A DNA stretch of 64,000 nt from Escherichia coli (GCF_030013205.1 NZ_CP122649.1); one strand, 5' to 3'; numbered from the stretch's first letter, positions 38,917 through 45,242 are shown. The notes: generated by a model from the letters alone, not told the origin. Program-made: numbers and translations.

Positions 38917-39141
38917 TTAATAATCACTTTCTTCCGGTTGCGGCTGGGTGACAAACTGGTACTTCACCCCATTAGGGACGCCAACGGCTTTTGCTACAGA
39001 TTCACACAGCAGCGACAGGTCATTCAGAGTCATCGGATATTCGATATCGACGGAATATAAGGCCCCGGCGTTCTCGGCCTCTTCGATATTTTTATACTGG
39101 GCACTGAAAATGGCTATGGTAGAGATTTCAAGGTTATGCAT
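38917..39141 (-). CDS. 74-aa protein, paralog of 45018..45242
   Basis: Shared block EYPMTLNDLSLLCESVAKA. Confidence 0.55.
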   Translation of the reverse strand: MHNLEISTIAIFSAQYKNIEEAENAGALYSVDIEYPMTLNDLSLLCESVAKAVGVPNGVKYQFVTQPQPEESDY

Positions 39142-39194
39142 GAGTCAGTCCTTGTTAATAAAAAAGAAGCCACCGTAAGGTGGCTGAATAAAGG

Positions 39195-39401
39195 TTACTG
39201 GACCTGGCTGGCCTTTTTTTCCGCGTTCTTGTTGTAATCAACGCGGGCAATAACGACGGCAGCGGCCAGGAGTGCAGCGAGACCGCCGTAGAATACTGGT
39301 CGGGAGATATCGACGAACATATCGCTCAGGTTATCAACGCCGAGGAGAAATACGCAGATAATGACGATAAAGCGAACAGGTTTGCTGTAGAACAATTTCA
39401 T
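39195..39401 (-). CDS. small membrane protein (68 aa)
   Basis: Two TM segments. Confidence 0.5.
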   Translation of the reverse strand: MKLFYSKPVRFIVIICVFLLGVDNLSDMFVDISRPVFYGGLAALLAAAVVIARVDYNKNAEKKASQVQ

Positions 39402-39602
39402 CAGGAGCTATCCTTCTGGGGTGAAATGACACCAGCATTACACCATATCAGATGCCAATTTTTTTTCGGTAACGGGCCTATTTTGACAAGAAAAAAGACA
39501 CATCAGGGAGGCAATGACGAGAGTATTTTCGAGGTGCCTATGGCCTGTCACTTCCTGAACTCAGGAAAAGAACGATGCTGTAGAACACAATCGAAATATA
39601 GA

Positions 39603-39613
39603 AAAGTAACTTT
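39603..39613. promoter_or_regulatory. AAAGTWACTTT palindrome site
   Basis: Exact match upstream of 39195..39401. Confidence 0.6.
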
Positions 39614-39796
39614 TCCACCGACGATATGTCCGGCGGCAAGTTATTCTTATGCAGGGCACAAATCAGTGAATTGGGTTCCGCGCGGGAAAGTCAAAAAAAC
39701 TTGCATGTCGTTCCGGATGCCAGGCGACGTAGCACATAGATTTGGGCCTGTGTAAGCGGGGAGCTGGGACGTTTTGTGTCTGCCATAATGTTCCTT

Positions 39797-40057
39797 TTAT
39801 AACGAGGGCTGTCCGGCTGACAGATTAGCGGACAGACCTGAAAATAACGTGCATATCCAGCACCTGGCTGAATCCCTGAGCGAGGCAAATGCCTTTACTC
39901 TTCCCCCTCCGACAACAACAAAAATGCGTTGAGCTTCCTCTTCGGCCTGTTCATCAGTCATGCTTTTCTCGCGGATGTGCGAAGTAAACAGGCTCCAGTT
40001 TGCAGCGATAAAATCACGTACTTGATGCATTTCCGAATTCTCAGCGTCAATAACCAT
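39797..40057 (-). CDS. hypothetical protein (86 aa)
   Basis: ORF in the co-directional small-gene run. Confidence 0.4.
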   Translation of the reverse strand: MVIDAENSEMHQVRDFIAANWSLFTSHIREKSMTDEQAEEEAQRIFVVVGGGRVKAFASLRDSARCWICTLFSGLSANLSAGQPSL

Positions 40058-40145
40058 TTTTAGTGTCCTGTGTCTTAAATAAGGTCCGCCCTGTTAATAG
40101 ATCAGGGACGGACTGTTTAAGCGAGATAGCCAGCCTGTGCCGTGG

Positions 40146-42676: not shown

Positions 42677-43285
42677 TCACCCGGTAATAACGATGGCCTG
42701 TTCCAATTGTGGCTGGCGATCCCCCCGCAGCGCTACCGACTCCTGGAGGCGTGCGGAAGGCATCGTCATTGCCTTAAACCCCTCATCCCGCGAACGCACC
42801 AGCATCCCCCACGAATGGGTTTCACAGACATCGTTCTCGAAATTGGGTTCGGTCGACAGCAGTGATTCCATCTTCGGTTCGATGTGTACCGGCGCAATGT
42901 TTTTATAAACAGGGTGAACACGACACTGTTCAGACGCTTGTGCTCGGTAGCTCCCTTGCGCCAGCAGCACGTCATGGGAAACCAGGTCATAATCTGTATC
43001 TTCGACAAAAGTCTTCAGGGTGTGCGTTATTTTGCCGAATCCTTCGATATTCCAGACGGACACCATCGTAAACTCTTCAAACGCACGGGGACTTTTGACC
43101 AAAAATCCATTCAGCGCCCTACGCCCCTTCAGCATCCCCACCAGGTATTGCTTGTTGGGATAAGGGCGCATCGCAACAAGGTCATTACCAGTCAGGCGTA
43201 GCGACAGTTCCGGGACGCTTACGGAATCCAGCGTGCAAAGATTTCCCATCGGATGCAGGATTTTTGGTACAAGGTGCAAAAACAT
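42677..43285 (-). CDS. hypothetical protein (202 aa)
   Basis: ORF, no motif recognised. Confidence 0.55.
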   Translation of the reverse strand: MFLHLVPKILHPMGNLCTLDSVSVPELSLRLTGNDLVAMRPYPNKQYLVGMLKGRRALNGFLVKSPRAFEEFTMVSVWNIEGFGKITHTLKTFVEDTDYDLVSHDVLLAQGSYRAQASEQCRVHPVYKNIAPVHIEPKMESLLSTEPNFENDVCETHSWGMLVRSRDEGFKAMTMPSARLQESVALRGDRQPQLEQAIVITG

Positions 43286-43315
43286 CGGTATTCTCCTCGT
43301 TTATTAAGCCTTCAA

Positions 43316-43852
43316 TTATTGTGCCGTCGCCTGATGTATTTCGAACCAGAAGACAACCGGCTTTTCCGTGACTTCAATTAACCCAAATCGCTCTGCGGTT
43401 CTGAAGTTGACGCTGTATGCCCTGGCGCGTTCTACCTGGCGGCTTATTTCTTTCCTCATGCCTTCAACACTTAATGCACCTTTAAAGAGATTGCAGGGGG
43501 CGCAAGCCGGAAAAAGATTTTCGATTGCATGCAGTTCAGGGTGCATGACCTTACCGGTACTTCGAGCCCGGTGTGTCACTCGACTTCCAGCGGGGGCTCT
43601 GACCATTTCAAAATCCCGCCTCACCGGTTCAACATGATCGGCATGCCAGCCTTTTTCCGGCAAAGGACAGCCGCAGTAGGCACACCGACCGCCAAATTTC
43701 AAACGCAGTTCGGCTCGTTGCTCTTTGGATATTTTATTTTTTGGTTTTGAAAATCGCCCATCATCAGATTCAACCTTCGGGAGGAGTTCTGAAAAATTGG
43801 GTAATTCGATTACTGCGCCTTTGTTATTTAGAACTTTCACCGGACCTCCCAA
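43316..43852 (-). CDS. HNH endonuclease
   Basis: CAYCGCPL ... HADHVEP ... NLFPACAPCN. Confidence 0.75.
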   Translation of the reverse strand: MGGPVKVLNNKGAVIELPNFSELLPKVESDDGRFSKPKNKISKEQRAELRLKFGGRCAYCGCPLPEKGWHADHVEPVRRDFEMVRAPAGSRVTHRARSTGKVMHPELHAIENLFPACAPCNLFKGALSVEGMRKEISRQVERARAYSVNFRTAERFGLIEVTEKPVVFWFEIHQATAQ

Positions 43853-43870
43853 CCATATTAAGACGATTTT

Positions 43871-44182
43871 TTATTTATTTTCCTGAATTAGTTTTCGAAT
43901 TTTAATCAGGTGTGGTCGGCTTAATTTGCATAGCTGTTCGGTCGCGGCATCCAGAGTGGGAAATACATGGGCCTCATTAATATCCAGTGTCCAGTATTTC
44001 GCTTTACCTTCTCCCAGATCAGATTCAAAGTAATTCCGCTTTACCCCAATCTGCTTTGGTCTTCCATTAATTCTGACGATTTCATGCCGCTCGTCGAAGA
44101 TAAAACCCTCTCCGACCAACGTCAGGAGGACAAAAGGGCCCTCGGCCTTTTGCGTACCCAGCGAACTCATCTCATTATTCAT
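43871..44182 (-). CDS. hypothetical protein (103 aa)
   Basis: Between the ASCH and HNH genes, 4-nt overlap with the ASCH stop. Confidence 0.5.
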   Translation of the reverse strand: MNNEMSSLGTQKAEGPFVLLTLVGEGFIFDERHEIVRINGRPKQIGVKRNYFESDLGEGKAKYWTLDINEAHVFPTLDAATEQLCKLSRPHLIKIRKLIQENK

Positions 44183-44862
44183 ACGACCTCCCCGGTAATA
44201 CGCTTAAAGTTGACGACCCAGACCCACGGGTTGGCCTGCCAACTGTCCTCGCCGTACGTGTTTTTCCAGAGGCTGCGGAAGCCAAGAAAGTGCTTATCGC
44301 CAAGAACACAACATTCTGTTGGTGCGCCTTCAGCTTTGGCATCTTCCTCGCTGATGGTATTTAACCGCTCTACCCGCAAATCGGTAATTTCCAGTGCAAT
44401 ACGGCTGGCCCAGCGAGGCATATGGATTGAAGGTGTCCACGCACCTTCGAACTTCATATTTTCGGTACGAGGCTTCCAGTCGGCCTCATCAGGGATCGAC
44501 CACAGCCCATAATCCCCCGACCGCTGTTCGCAGCTCGCCCGGTAAATGCGGGCTGCTTCAGTCCTGTCCATCACGATGTTGTCATTCCAGTCCACCGCGC
44601 ACGCATCTTCATTCCCGAGCAATGAAAACGCCTCACGGACCGTAATGCGGTCGCCAACTACGCCGTACGGACAAGGCCGAAGCGCCGAGTATGGCTGGGT
44701 CCCTGTTGGAAGCCACCAGTCATGCGTGTGCCCGCGATGTCGCGGTGTTTGCGCAGGCCTTATAGACCATTCATCCGAACTATATTGAGGCTTTATAATC
44801 CGCCGCGTCTGTGTTTTCTGATCTGCCAGAATTGCCCGGACCATTTCATCATTAAAAAGCAT
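44179..44862 (-). CDS. ASCH-domain protein
   Basis: N-terminus MLFNDEMVRAILADQKTQTRRII fits the ASCH signature; start at ATG 44862. Confidence 0.6.
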   Translation of the reverse strand: MLFNDEMVRAILADQKTQTRRIIKPQYSSDEWSIRPAQTPRHRGHTHDWWLPTGTQPYSALRPCPYGVVGDRITVREAFSLLGNEDACAVDWNDNIVMDRTEAARIYRASCEQRSGDYGLWSIPDEADWKPRTENMKFEGAWTPSIHMPRWASRIALEITDLRVERLNTISEEDAKAEGAPTECCVLGDKHFLGFRSLWKNTYGEDSWQANPWVWVVNFKRITGEVV

Positions 44863-45017
44863 TCCACGTGTCTTCACTGTGCTGACTCCTTTCACACATG
44901 GTTCACACATTGAGAGGCCTATCCCTCTTTATCAGCCAGGCATACCGAAACTGTCGGTAGTTTTACGGGAACGGGCAACTGCCCCCCTACCTGATAAAGT
45001 GGTGTTCTCCCCCAAAA

Positions 45018-45242
45018 TTAATCGTATTCCCCATCCACTACCGGCTCAGTCGTAATTTCATATTTCACTCCGCCGGGTACATCCAACGCTTTAGCGACGG
45101 ACTCACACAGCAATGACAAATCATTCAGGGTCATTGGGTATTCAACTTCCAGGCTGTGCAGTGCATTGGCGCTGGCAGCAGCAGCCTTGTCAGCATGACA
45201 GGCATTAAAAACGAAAACGGTGGTTTTTTCTTGAATAGGCAT
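45018..45242 (-). CDS. 74-aa protein, paralog of 38917..39141
   Basis: Shared block EYPMTLNDLSLLCESVAKA. Confidence 0.55.
   Translation of the reverse strand: MPIQEKTTVFVFNACHADKAAAASANALHSLEVEYPMTLNDLSLLCESVAKALDVPGGVKYEITTEPVVDGEYD

What the first reader, a model, noticed from the sequence alone, without database searches (positions are those of the whole stretch)
38917..45242. Co-directional run of about 14 small genes including an ASCH-domain protein and an HNH endonuclease
All genes from 45242 down to 38917 are on the minus strand, many with overlapping or tightly spaced ends. Within it an ASCH-domain gene, a 103-aa gene and an HNH endonuclease gene form a coupled trio (43316-44862). 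The run is bracketed by two 74-aa paralogs sharing the block EYPMTLNDLSLLCESVAKA, and two adjacent small genes (41625-42138) form a possible regulatory or TA-like pair. Dense arrays of small genes like this on conjugative plasmids often encode establishment or anti-defence functions, but none here is identifiable by motif.
Basis: partly seen in the sequence, partly recalled or inferred. Interest (0 to 1): 0.55.

Follow-up and report, generated by a model that had tools for sequence, protein, structure and literature searches.

The report
IncHI1 plasmid accessory small-gene block
This is a real, already annotated run of 14 small genes in the backbone of the IncHI1 resistance plasmids (R27/pHCM1 type): a patchwork of unrelated phage-like and plasmid-like accessory genes of unknown function, not one coupled system.

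Summary
Fourteen minus-strand genes lie at 38917-45242 and match the RefSeq gene calls. The window is at least 99% identical to more than 200 IncHI1 plasmids, including pHCM1 of Salmonella Typhi. The run is only part of a longer block of about 26 kb (27.6-53.2 kb) in which nearly all genes share the minus strand. This block lies just after the Tra1 relaxase operon.

- **HNH call:** supported by an intact motif and PHROG (2.7e-54).
- **74-aa paralogs:** real. They form an orphan IncHI-type family, were duplicated before the IncHI1/IncHI2 split, and are linked to the neighbouring DndC-like PAPS reductase.
- **ASCH/103-aa/HNH trio:** adjacent, but not a conserved module. IncHI2 lacks the ASCH gene, and prophage homologues occur separately. 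A circulating S. Typhi plasmid has lost five of these genes.
- **TA-like pair:** not supported.
- **Known families:** no gene matches a known anti-restriction, anti-CRISPR, SOS-inhibitor or defence family.
- **Side finding:** a promoter motif specific to this block (GGTTATTAGCCAG) splits the run into at least three transcription units.

An establishment or counter-defence role is plausible but unproven. Whether the block enters the recipient early is unknown. Interest is low to moderate.

The parts
38917..39141 (-). 74-aa acidic protein, paralog A (par74a)
   Evidence: ORF and RefSeq CDS. pI 4.1. 80% identical to its IncHI2 ortholog. Orphan family.
39168..39185 (-). Terminator-like hairpin between the 68-aa gene and par74a
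   Evidence: 7-pair stem (5 GC) followed by a T-run.
39195..39401 (-). 68-aa hydrophobic (probable membrane) protein
   Evidence: GRAVY 0.68. No family hit.
39797..40057 (-). 86-aa protein, IncHI1-specific
   Evidence: Only a weak phrog_15754 hit. No IncHI2 counterpart.
40146..40637 (-). DUF3085 protein (163 aa, acidic)
   Evidence: Pfam PF11284 at 2.3e-15 and phrog_18284. 51% identical to the IncHI2 ortholog. Reported as the protein family most enriched in broad-host-range plasmids, function unknown.
40642..40950 (-). 102-aa acidic protein that RefSeq names DUF957
   Evidence: RefSeq name. The Pfam scan here gave no hit at E<=0.1. 73% identical to the IncHI2 ortholog. A 4-nt gap separates it from the DUF3085 gene.
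40975..41011 (-). Member of the block-specific promoter family (GGTTATTAGCCAG, about 13 nt, extended -10)
   Evidence: The exact 11-mer occurs only 5 times in the 216.7-kb plasmid, all in window 31-55 kb. A copy with one mismatch lies upstream of the IncHI2 DUF957 ortholog.
41113..41135 (-). Strong intrinsic-terminator-like hairpin that ends the upstream transcription unit
   Evidence: 9-pair stem (5 GC) followed by a T-run.
41158..41538 (-). 126-aa very hydrophobic membrane protein (GTG start)
   Evidence: GRAVY 1.41. No IncHI2 counterpart.
41625..41873 (-). 82-aa protein (phrog_1344)
   Evidence: phrog_1344 at 9.7e-11. 55% identical to an IncHI2 ortholog. No TA family hit.
41911..42132 (-). 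73-aa protein (phrog_7185)
   Evidence: phrog_7185 at 1.7e-13. Homologues in 16 siphophage records. No IncHI2 counterpart in L014.
42308..42661 (-). 117-aa acidic protein (phrog_27273); RefSeq also uses shorter starts
   Evidence: phrog_27273 at 1.6e-26. Phage homologues. Present in some IncHI2 plasmids (L016). Lost in the S. Typhi variant.
42677..43285 (-). DUF6012 protein (202 aa)
   Evidence: Pfam PF19475 at 1.9e-31. Found in 2212 plasmid records, mostly conjugative. Lies directly upstream of topB in IncX4 plasmids.
43316..43840 (-). HNH endonuclease (174 aa, basic)
   Evidence: The motif CAYCGC...HADH...ENL...CAPCN is read directly. phrog_2118 at 2.7e-54. About 60% identical to the HNH domains of many phage proteins. 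No Pfam HNH hit at E<=0.1.
43871..44182 (-). 103-aa protein (phrog_30913)
   Evidence: phrog_30913 at 5.5e-36. Only 37 clusters, in records named from Enterobacterales apart from one 64-aa fragment labelled Xanthomonas citri. Homologues lie in N15-like and Mu-like prophage early regions.
44179..44877 (-). ASCH-fold protein (232 aa from GTG; 243 aa if ATG 44910 is used)
45018..45242 (-). 74-aa acidic protein, paralog B (par74b)
   Evidence: pI 4.4. AF2 model with pLDDT 82 and beta-alpha-beta-alpha-beta topology. No structural relative outside its own family.
45265..45280 (.). Palindromic GC-rich hairpin between the 154-aa gene and par74b
   Evidence: Detected on both strands.
45976..48351 (-). 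Context: 791-aa DndC-like PAPS-reductase-family protein, syntenically linked to the par74 family
   Evidence: NCBIfam DndC 8e-33, below the curated cut-off. PADLOC DndC 2e-37. Pfam PAPS_reduct. The order PAPS reductase, small gene, par74 relative recurs in loci L018, L020 and L021.

Best explanation
**What is shown.** The 14 genes are part of the conserved backbone of IncHI1 plasmids (R27/pHCM1 type). They lie in a block of about 26 kb (window 27.6-53.2 kb) in which nearly all genes are on the minus strand. This block starts just after the Tra1 relaxase operon.

The run is not one system. It is a patchwork of small accessory genes that assort independently. It is divided into at least three transcription units:
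- 45242 to 41158, ending at the terminator 41135-41113
- a unit driven by a block-specific promoter at about 41011-40975: DUF957, DUF3085, the 86-aa gene and the 68-aa gene, ending at the terminator 39185-39168
- par74a and the genes downstream of it

Relatives of these genes sit in the early accessory regions of temperate phages (P22-like ea region, Mu semi-essential region, N15-like and P1-like phages). They also sit in the backbones of other conjugative plasmids.

**What is inferred.** The block is a co-regulated set of functions that act on the new host or on DNA. It probably helps the plasmid establish itself against host nucleic-acid-based barriers. The most likely actors:
- the DndC-like PAPS reductase next door, with its linked small acidic par74 proteins
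- the ASCH-fold protein, whose fold class binds or processes modified nucleic acids
- the HNH nuclease

I put about 0.9 on the structural and evolutionary description. I put about 0.4 on at least part of the run having an establishment or counter-defence role.
For: **Identity and conservation.**
- At least 99% DNA identity to 213 plasmid records and 107 E. coli genome records; annotation.
- Ten genes have syntenic IncHI2 orthologs at 51-80% amino-acid identity, with dN far below dS.

**Mosaic nature.**
- Each gene of the trio has its own distribution.
- DUF6012 occurs in 2212 plasmid records and sits next to topB in IncX4.
- The 73-aa, 82-aa and 117-aa genes hit different PHROG families and different phages.

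**Transcription units.** Terminators and the promoter family. The exact 11-mer is confined to window 31-55 kb of the 216.7-kb plasmid. A near-identical copy is kept in IncHI2.

**Context that fits an establishment or counter-defence role.**
- hok/sok; ParB-HTH, DUF905 and a HigB-like toxin in the same block.
- The DndC-like PAPS reductase. PAPS-reductase genes carried by mobile elements are reported to counter Dnd defence and to sit in anti-defence hotspots.
- Distant par74 relatives sit in similar arrays that carry Lar, an orphan methylase, hok and GmrSD_N.
- Several products are small and acidic (pI 4.1-4.7).
Against: - None of the 14 proteins matches a known anti-restriction, anti-CRISPR, SOS-inhibitor or defence family in Pfam, NCBIfam, PHROGs or PADLOC.
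- ssb, psiB, ardA and klcA are not annotated anywhere on the plasmid.
- The relaxase operon lies between the presumed oriT and the block. Relaxase genes usually mark the lagging side, so the block may enter last.
- The intergenic regions inside the run show no exceptional single-strand structure (z -1.3 and -1.8).
- A circulating S. Typhi pHCM1 variant lacks the 117-aa, DUF6012, HNH, 103-aa and ASCH genes. Those five genes are therefore dispensable for maintenance.
- The ASCH model has only moderate confidence (pLDDT 66).
Confidence: 0.6

Rival explanations
1. The block is a true leading-region anti-defence island. It enters the recipient early and is transcribed from the incoming single strand, as in F-like and IncI plasmids.
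For: - About 40 genes share one orientation, all pointing toward the presumed oriT at about 17 kb. This is the orientation expected if the plus strand is the transferred strand.
- hok/sok, ParB-HTH and DUF905 are typical leading-region cargo.
- Related arrays carry Lar and an orphan methylase.
Against: - mobI, the relaxase and the coupling-protein operon (17.6-27.6 kb) lie between oriT and the block. Relaxase genes are normally on the lagging side.
- The nic site and the transfer direction have not been determined for the related MOBH1 IncA/C plasmids, and I found none for IncHI.
- No ssb, psiB or ardA is annotated.
- There is no strong single-strand hairpin signal within the run.
- The shared promoter looks like an ordinary double-strand sigma-70 promoter.
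Confidence: 0.25
2. The ASCH / 103-aa / HNH trio is a modification-dependent (type IV-like) restriction or defence module. A PUA-like reader of modified nucleic acid would direct the HNH nuclease.
For: - The HNH motif is intact.
- The ASCH and 103-aa genes overlap by 4 nt.
Against: - IncHI2 keeps the 103-aa and HNH genes without ASCH.
- ASCH-like homologues in three inspected phages have no HNH neighbour.
- Homologues of the 103-aa protein in prophages have neither partner.
- PADLOC gives only weak generic HNH/PtuB hits and nothing for the other two proteins.
Confidence: 0.08
3. The two small genes at 41625-42132 form a toxin-antitoxin or regulator pair.
For: They are adjacent, small (82 and 73 aa) and on the same strand with a 37-nt gap.
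Against: - No TA or HTH family hit in Pfam, NCBIfam or PADLOC.
- Both proteins are mildly basic (pI 8.5 and 8.7).
- The 73-aa gene has no counterpart in the IncHI2 locus, whereas the 82-aa gene does.
- Their phage homologues occur in different phages.
Confidence: 0.05
4. The run is mostly selfish or neutral cargo, such as a free-standing HNH gene and phage-derived morons, with no benefit to the plasmid.
For: - Natural deletions remove five of the genes in a circulating S. Typhi plasmid.
- Gene content differs between IncHI1 and IncHI2.
- The genes resemble phage accessory genes.
Against: - Ten genes are retained in the same order since the IncHI1/IncHI2 split, with dN far below a saturated dS.
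- A shared, conserved promoter motif implies regulated expression.
- DUF6012 and DUF3085 are widely kept on conjugative plasmids.
Confidence: 0.15

Closest known systems
Anti-defence islands in plasmid leading regions (Samuel et al. 2024, PMC11541004)
   Same: A dense array of small, mostly uncharacterised genes in one orientation on a conjugative plasmid. hok/sok and ParB-like genes lie in the same block. The orientation points toward oriT.
   Different: - No known anti-defence gene, ssb, psiB or methylase lies within the 14 genes.
- The relaxase operon separates the block from oriT.
- The transfer direction of MOBH1 plasmids has not been established.
- No Frpo-like single-strand structure was detected in the run.
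Early accessory regions of temperate phages (Mu semi-essential early region, P22 ea region, N15-like and P1 pmg regions)
   Same: Homologues of the ASCH-like, 103-aa, HNH, 73-aa and 117-aa proteins lie in such regions. They sit next to Lar, Dam, DinI, Ead/Ea22, kil and gemA genes.
   Different: Here the genes are on a plasmid and in a different order and combination. The functions of the phage homologues are also unknown.
Regulons with repeated promoters or operators in plasmid backbones: CUP repeats of the pKM101 leading region and the KorA/KorB regulon of RK2 (from my own knowledge, not checked here)
   Same: A conserved promoter-region motif is repeated in front of several accessory transcription units and is confined to one plasmid sector.
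   Different: The motif (GGTTATTAGCCAG overlapping the -35 position) is unrelated in sequence. No binding protein is identified. The ParB-HTH protein at 31659-32864 is only a guess.
DndC/SspD-like PAPS reductases carried by mobile elements (anti-Dnd phage gene, Piel et al. preprint 10.1101/2021.05.05.442762; IbrA-like proteins, the latter from my own knowledge)
   Same: The gene two positions upstream of par74b (a 154-aa gene lies between them) encodes a lone DndC-like protein with no DndA, DndB, DndD or DndE. This resembles the mobile-element copies proposed to counter phosphorothioate-based defence.
   Different: - It lies outside the finding's coordinates.
- It scores below the NCBIfam DndC cut-off (114 against 290 bits).
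- It is 791 aa long, with a large C-terminal extension that matches no family.
- Its activity is untested.

Membership tests
ASCH domain (PUA-like superfamily) | ASCH beta-barrel fold | tested here: met
ASCH domain (PUA-like superfamily) | Match to the Pfam ASCH profile (PF04266) | tested here: not met
   No Pfam hit at E<=0.1. No precomputed Pfam domain on 120 listed homologues. No sequence hit to a solved structure. Some RefSeq records do name the protein ASCH.
HNH (beta-beta-alpha-metal) endonuclease | Catalytic His, Asn/His and two CxxC zinc knuckles | tested here: met
   CAYCGC...WHADHVEP...IENLFPACAPCN is read in the translation. phrog_2118 'HNH endonuclease' 2.7e-54. About 60% identity to phage HNH domains.
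HNH (beta-beta-alpha-metal) endonuclease | Match to Pfam or NCBIfam HNH models above threshold | tested here: not met
   No Pfam hit at E<=0.1. NCBIfam TIGR02646 scores 20.8 bits against a cut-off of 52.
Type II toxin-antitoxin pair (genes at 41625-42132) | At least one partner belongs to a toxin or antitoxin family | tested here: not met
   Searches give only PHROG families of unknown function.
Type II toxin-antitoxin pair (genes at 41625-42132) | The two genes are conserved together | tested here: not met
   The 73-aa gene has no counterpart in IncHI2 locus L014, whereas the 82-aa gene does. Their phage distributions do not overlap.
Leading-region anti-defence island | Lies on the side of oriT that enters the recipient first | tested here: inconclusive
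   oriT is expected upstream of mobI at about 16.8-17.6 kb. The relaxase operon lies between oriT and the block, and relaxases usually mark the lagging side. The nic site and direction are undetermined for MOBH1.
Leading-region anti-defence island | Contains known anti-defence, SOS-inhibitor, ssb or orphan methylase genes | tested here: not met
   None among the 14 genes. The wider block has hok/sok, ParB-HTH, DUF905 and a DndC-like gene.
Leading-region anti-defence island | Single-strand (Frpo/ssi-type) promoter structures | tested here: inconclusive
   DNA folds of two intergenic regions in the run give z -1.3 and -1.8. A region outside the run (50709-51206) gives z -2.9. No Frpo model was available.
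Modification-dependent restriction module (PUA-like reader plus HNH) | Reader and nuclease fused or consistently co-encoded | tested here: not met
Known anti-phage defence systems (PADLOC) | Profile match to a system component | tested here: not met
   Only weak HNH/PtuB-type hits (E >= 2.5e-4) and JetB at 0.015.
DUF3085 / DUF6012 (Pfam families of unknown function) | Pfam profile match | tested here: met
   PF11284 at 2.3e-15 and PF19475 at 1.9e-31.

The most novel reading that the evidence does not exclude
The 27.6-55.8 kb sector of IncHI plasmids is a previously unrecognised regulon. It would be driven by a private promoter/operator motif (GGTTATTAGCCAG) and switched on when the plasmid enters a new cell. 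Within it, the lone DndC-like PAPS reductase and the orphan acidic par74 proteins would form a new counter-defence module, for example against phosphorothioate-based or other DNA-backbone-sensing immunity. The ASCH-fold, HNH, DUF6012 and DUF3085 proteins would be further, new anti-defence or DNA-processing effectors.
Probability: 0.15. Interest if true: 0.65.

Novelty: new member of a known kind. Interest (0 to 1): 0.3.

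Why it matters
IncHI1 and IncHI2 plasmids carry multidrug resistance in Salmonella Typhi and carry mcr-type colistin resistance in Enterobacteriaceae. Yet about a quarter of their backbone is still annotated as 'hypothetical'.

If this block controls establishment in defended recipients, it would help explain the host range of these plasmids and offer targets to limit their spread. DUF3085 has been reported as the protein family most enriched in broad-host-range plasmids, and its function is unknown. 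DUF6012 is present in more than 2000 sequenced plasmids and appeared in no paper in the library searched.

On present evidence, however, this is an ordinary, already annotated accessory region with no demonstrated function.

Tried and rejected
- **Family searches.** Pfam, NCBIfam, PHROGs and PADLOC scans of all 14 proteins plus 25 neighbours found no anti-restriction, Acr, PsiB, Ssb, TA or defence family in the run.
- **Trio as a conserved module.** Rejected on phage, prophage and IncHI2 context.
- **TA pair.** Rejected.
- **ASCH-like profile against PDB sequences.** Nothing.
- **Rfam on the whole window.** Only sok.
- **Single-strand promoter-like structure in the run.** Not significant.
- **Transfer direction of IncHI or MOBH1 plasmids.** Lawley 2002 and Ceccarelli 2008 are not held. 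The IncA/C oriT paper states that the nic site could not be mapped.
- **Literature on the promoter motif and on DUF6012.** None found.
- **HNH plus DUF6012 as a pair.** Rejected, because DUF6012 sits next to topB in IncX4 plasmids with no HNH nearby.

Full report
**1. Where the window comes from**

The region 38600-45900 is 99.8-100% identical over its full length to 98 E. coli plasmid records. It is at least 99% identical to 213 records in the plasmid collection. These include pHCM1 of Salmonella Typhi CT18 (NC_003384.1, positions 4288-11587) and a 216.7-kb E. coli plasmid (NZ_CP122645.1). The plasmids are typed as conjugative, MOBH, MPF_F, which is the IncHI1 group.

The annotation maps onto the window as follows:
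- Tra1 mating-pair genes trhG, trhH and trhF lie at 8.4-14.9 kb on the minus strand.
- mobI (called TraH in R27), the MobH relaxase, the coupling protein and associated genes lie at 17.6-27.6 kb on the plus strand.
- About 40 small genes follow from 27622 to 53224, nearly all on the minus strand.

oriT is expected in the 758-bp gap upstream of mobI. The literature places oriT next to the mobI-type gene in R27, SXT and IncA/C. The finding is therefore a slice of a much longer same-strand block. That block is interrupted at 36188-38604 by an IS1 element and a captured chromosomal corA-ysgD fragment.

**2. Checking the observation**

All 14 ORFs exist as described and coincide with RefSeq CDS. 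Nearly all have a Shine-Dalgarno sequence.

Ten have orthologs in the same order in IncHI2 plasmids, at these amino-acid identities:

| Gene | Identity to IncHI2 ortholog |
|---|---|
| par74a | 80% |
| DUF3085 | 51% |
| DUF957 | 73% |
| 82-aa | 55% |
| DUF6012 | 60% |
| HNH | 79% |
| 103-aa | 69% |
| par74b | 70% |
| neighbouring PAPS reductase | 75% |
| neighbouring 148-aa gene | 60% |

Non-synonymous divergence is 0.12-0.41, and synonymous sites are saturated. These are genuine protein-coding genes under purifying selection.

That block carries about ten synonymous nucleotide differences, so it is maintained by selection and not by recent gene conversion. Each paralog is closer to its IncHI2 ortholog than to the other paralog. 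The duplication therefore predates the IncHI1/IncHI2 split.

Two points were overstated:
- Only one pair overlaps (ASCH/103-aa, 4 nt) and one pair is 4 nt apart. The other spacers are 15-395 nt.
- The run is not a single operon (section 5).

**3. What the individual genes are**

*Database scans.* Pfam recognises only DUF3085 (40146-40637) and DUF6012 (42677-43285). NCBIfam and PADLOC give nothing above threshold for any of the 14. The only signals are weak generic HNH hits. PHROGs shows that seven of the proteins belong to phage protein families. Apart from the HNH family, all are of unknown function:

| Protein | PHROG family | E-value |
|---|---|---|
| ASCH-like | phrog_874 | 1.6e-76 |
| 103-aa | phrog_30913 | 5.5e-36 |
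| HNH | phrog_2118 | 2.7e-54 |
| 117-aa | phrog_27273 | 1.6e-26 |
| 73-aa | phrog_7185 | 1.7e-13 |
| 82-aa | phrog_1344 | 9.7e-11 |
| DUF3085 | phrog_18284 | 1.6e-09 |

*HNH call.* The protein has an intact CxxC...HxDH...N...CxxC signature.

*par74 proteins.* They are acidic (pI 4.1 and 4.4). The model is confident (pLDDT 82) with beta-alpha-beta-alpha-beta topology. It has no informative structural neighbour. An exhaustive profile search of 1.84 billion representatives returned 21 proteins, mostly fragments of the same family.

**4. Is the ASCH / 103-aa / HNH trio a unit? Is 41625-42138 a TA pair?**

Neither claim is supported.

*ASCH-like family.* It is very large, with at least 8000 clusters. 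It occurs alone in phage accessory regions:
- next to Dam and Dcm methylases in the early-left operon of a Klebsiella prophage
- in the ea-like region of a P22-like or epsilon15-like phage
- near pmgS of a P1-like phage

*103-aa family.* It is narrow: 37 clusters, almost all from Enterobacterales records. Its divergent members lie in the early region of N15-like prophages, among RdgC, Lar, Ead/Ea22, Dam and DinI genes. They also lie in the Mu semi-essential early region, between kil/DUF3164 and gemA/mor. Neither an ASCH gene nor an HNH gene is adjacent in these places.

*HNH domain.* It is found at about 60% identity in many phage proteins, often as the C-terminal part of larger proteins.

*IncHI2 and natural deletions.* IncHI2 plasmids have the order PAPS reductase, par74b, 103-aa, a 62-aa gene, HNH, DUF6012, with no ASCH gene. 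A circulating S. Typhi pHCM1 variant (NZ_CP029939.1) carries two deletions, at window 42276-43160 and 43360-44771. Together these remove the 117-aa, DUF6012, HNH, 103-aa and ASCH genes. These five genes are therefore dispensable for plasmid maintenance.

*The proposed TA pair.* The 82-aa and 73-aa genes hit no toxin or antitoxin family. They are 37 nt apart. They are not conserved together, because the 73-aa gene is missing in IncHI2. Their homologues occur in different phages.

*DUF6012.* It is present in 2212 plasmid records. In IncX4 plasmids it sits directly upstream of topB, not next to an HNH gene.

**5. Transcription units and a block-specific promoter family**

The repeat search found a short direct repeat upstream of several genes. 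Aligning eight upstream regions shows a common architecture:
- an A/T-rich tract
- cAGGTTATTAGCCAG
- 12-13 nt
- an extended -10 element (TGnTAnAAT)
- about 25-35 nt, a Shine-Dalgarno sequence, then ATG

The exact 11-mer TTATTAGCCAG occurs five times in the window, against about one expected even when one mismatch is allowed. In the whole 216.7-kb plasmid it occurs only at those five sites, all within window 31-55 kb.

One copy lies inside the finding, at 41009-40999, in front of the DUF957-DUF3085 unit. A copy with a single mismatch lies in front of the IncHI2 DUF957 ortholog, although the surrounding DNA is only about 70% identical.

Terminator-like hairpins lie at 41135-41113, 39185-39168 and 45280-45265. 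Together with the promoter, they split the run into at least three units.

The conservation extends well beyond what sigma-70 needs at the -35 position. This suggests an operator for a plasmid-encoded regulator. That step is an inference. The ParB-HTH protein at 31659-32864 is an untested candidate. No paper in the library contains the motif.

**6. Context and the most likely role**

The same block contains these genes:
- hok/sok (Rfam sok, 89 bits)
- a ParB-HTH protein, DUF905 and a HigB-like toxin
- a 791-aa DndC-like PAPS-reductase-family protein, two genes upstream of par74b, with no other dnd genes (NCBIfam DndC 8e-33, below cut-off; PADLOC DndC 2e-37)

Distant par74 relatives (29-38% identity) were found on other large metagenomic or plasmid contigs. 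They sit one small gene downstream of an equivalent PAPS-reductase-like protein of about 800 aa. A variable array of small genes follows, including Lar (restriction alleviation), an Mrr_N-methylase, hok and GmrSD_N.

A phage PAPS-reductase domain has been shown to be part of an anti-Dnd function. Such genes are reported in anti-defence hotspots. DUF3085 is reported as the family most enriched in broad-host-range plasmids, with unknown function.

These observations make an establishment or counter-defence role plausible for parts of the block. None of it is direct evidence, and none of the 14 proteins matches a known anti-defence family.

**7. The leading-region question**

All the block's genes point toward the presumed oriT. 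This is the orientation expected for leading-region genes if the plus strand is the transferred strand. However, the relaxase operon lies between oriT and the block, and relaxase genes usually mark the lagging side. On that rule the block would enter last.

For the related MOBH1 IncA/C plasmids, the nic site could not be mapped. I could not retrieve the R27 or SXT oriT papers. Single-strand folding of two intergenic regions in the run is unremarkable (z -1.3 and -1.8). The question stays open, and it is the most decisive experiment.

**8. Verdict**

The object is a real, conserved and already annotated accessory region of the IncHI1 backbone. It is a mosaic of independently assorting genes related to phage and plasmid accessory genes, organised in several transcription units. 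It is not a coupled system.

Its function is unknown. A regulated establishment or counter-defence role is the best guess, at about 0.4 for at least part of the run.

The more interesting by-products are:
- the block-specific promoter motif
- the conserved link between the orphan par74 family and a lone DndC-like PAPS reductase

Interest is low to moderate.

Noticed in passing
window 28401-28437, 30152-30183, 31015-31046, 32913-32949, 40978-41011, 50747-50778, 53253-53289 (minus strand) and 54950-54985 (plus strand): A family of at least 8 promoters shares cAGGTTATTAGCCAG, 12-13 nt and an extended -10 element. The exact 11-mer occurs only 5 times in the 216.7-kb plasmid, all in this sector. 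One copy is conserved in IncHI2. This suggests a private regulon and operator. No paper in the library contains the motif.
   Followed up: partly
window 45976-48351 (minus strand); loci L018, L020 and L021: A lone 791-aa DndC-like PAPS-reductase-family gene with no other dnd genes. The order PAPS reductase, small gene, par74-family member recurs on distantly related large plasmid contigs. There it is followed by arrays containing Lar, an Mrr_N-methylase, hok and GmrSD_N.
   Followed up: partly
window 36188-38604: An IS1 element and a captured chromosomal fragment (corA, ysgD and a truncated ORF) are inserted in the middle of the same-strand block.
   Followed up: no
window 33719-34036: A hok-family toxin gene with its sok antisense RNA (Rfam RF01794, 89 bits). 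This was the only Rfam hit in the 64-kb window.
   Followed up: no
locus L015 (NZ_CP029939.1, S. Typhi pHCM1 variant), equivalent to window 42276-43160 and 43360-44771: Two natural deletions remove the 117-aa, DUF6012, HNH, 103-aa and ASCH genes in a circulating typhoid plasmid.
   Followed up: yes
window 39691-39786 (minus strand), inside the 395-bp gap between the 86-aa and 68-aa genes: A short ORF (MADTKRPSSPLTQAQIYVLRRLASGTTCKFF) that resembles the start of a LuxR-type helix-turn-helix and looks like a gene remnant. This is my reading of the sequence only.
   Followed up: no
window 38675-38882 (minus strand): The small gene downstream of par74a differs by one indel from the 68-aa pHCM1 version. 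It is called as 66 aa or 44 aa here, so it may be frameshifted in this copy.
   Followed up: no
window 50709-51206 (plus strand): A 498-nt intergenic region that folds unusually well as single-stranded DNA (z -2.9, 0 of 100 shuffles as good). It contains one of the shared promoters and could be checked as a single-strand promoter or other cis element.
   Followed up: no
loci L026 and L027 (IncX4 plasmids): DUF6012 homologues (about 40% identity) lie 11 nt upstream of the type IA topoisomerase gene topB in two diverged IncX4 plasmids. This hints at a DNA-topology-related role.
   Followed up: partly
phage records KC139632.1 (FSL SP-062) and ON602746.1 (VLCpiS10a): Homologues of the HNH gene and the 73-aa gene lie 1-2 kb apart in the same siphophage genomes. 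These two genes are about 1.2 kb apart on the plasmid.
   Followed up: no
NZ_CP122645.1 102444-104785 and 204604-206031 (outside the window): The plasmid also carries orphan Dam-type and cytosine DNA methyltransferases and a second ParB-like gene elsewhere. These are possible anti-restriction functions located away from this block.
   Followed up: no
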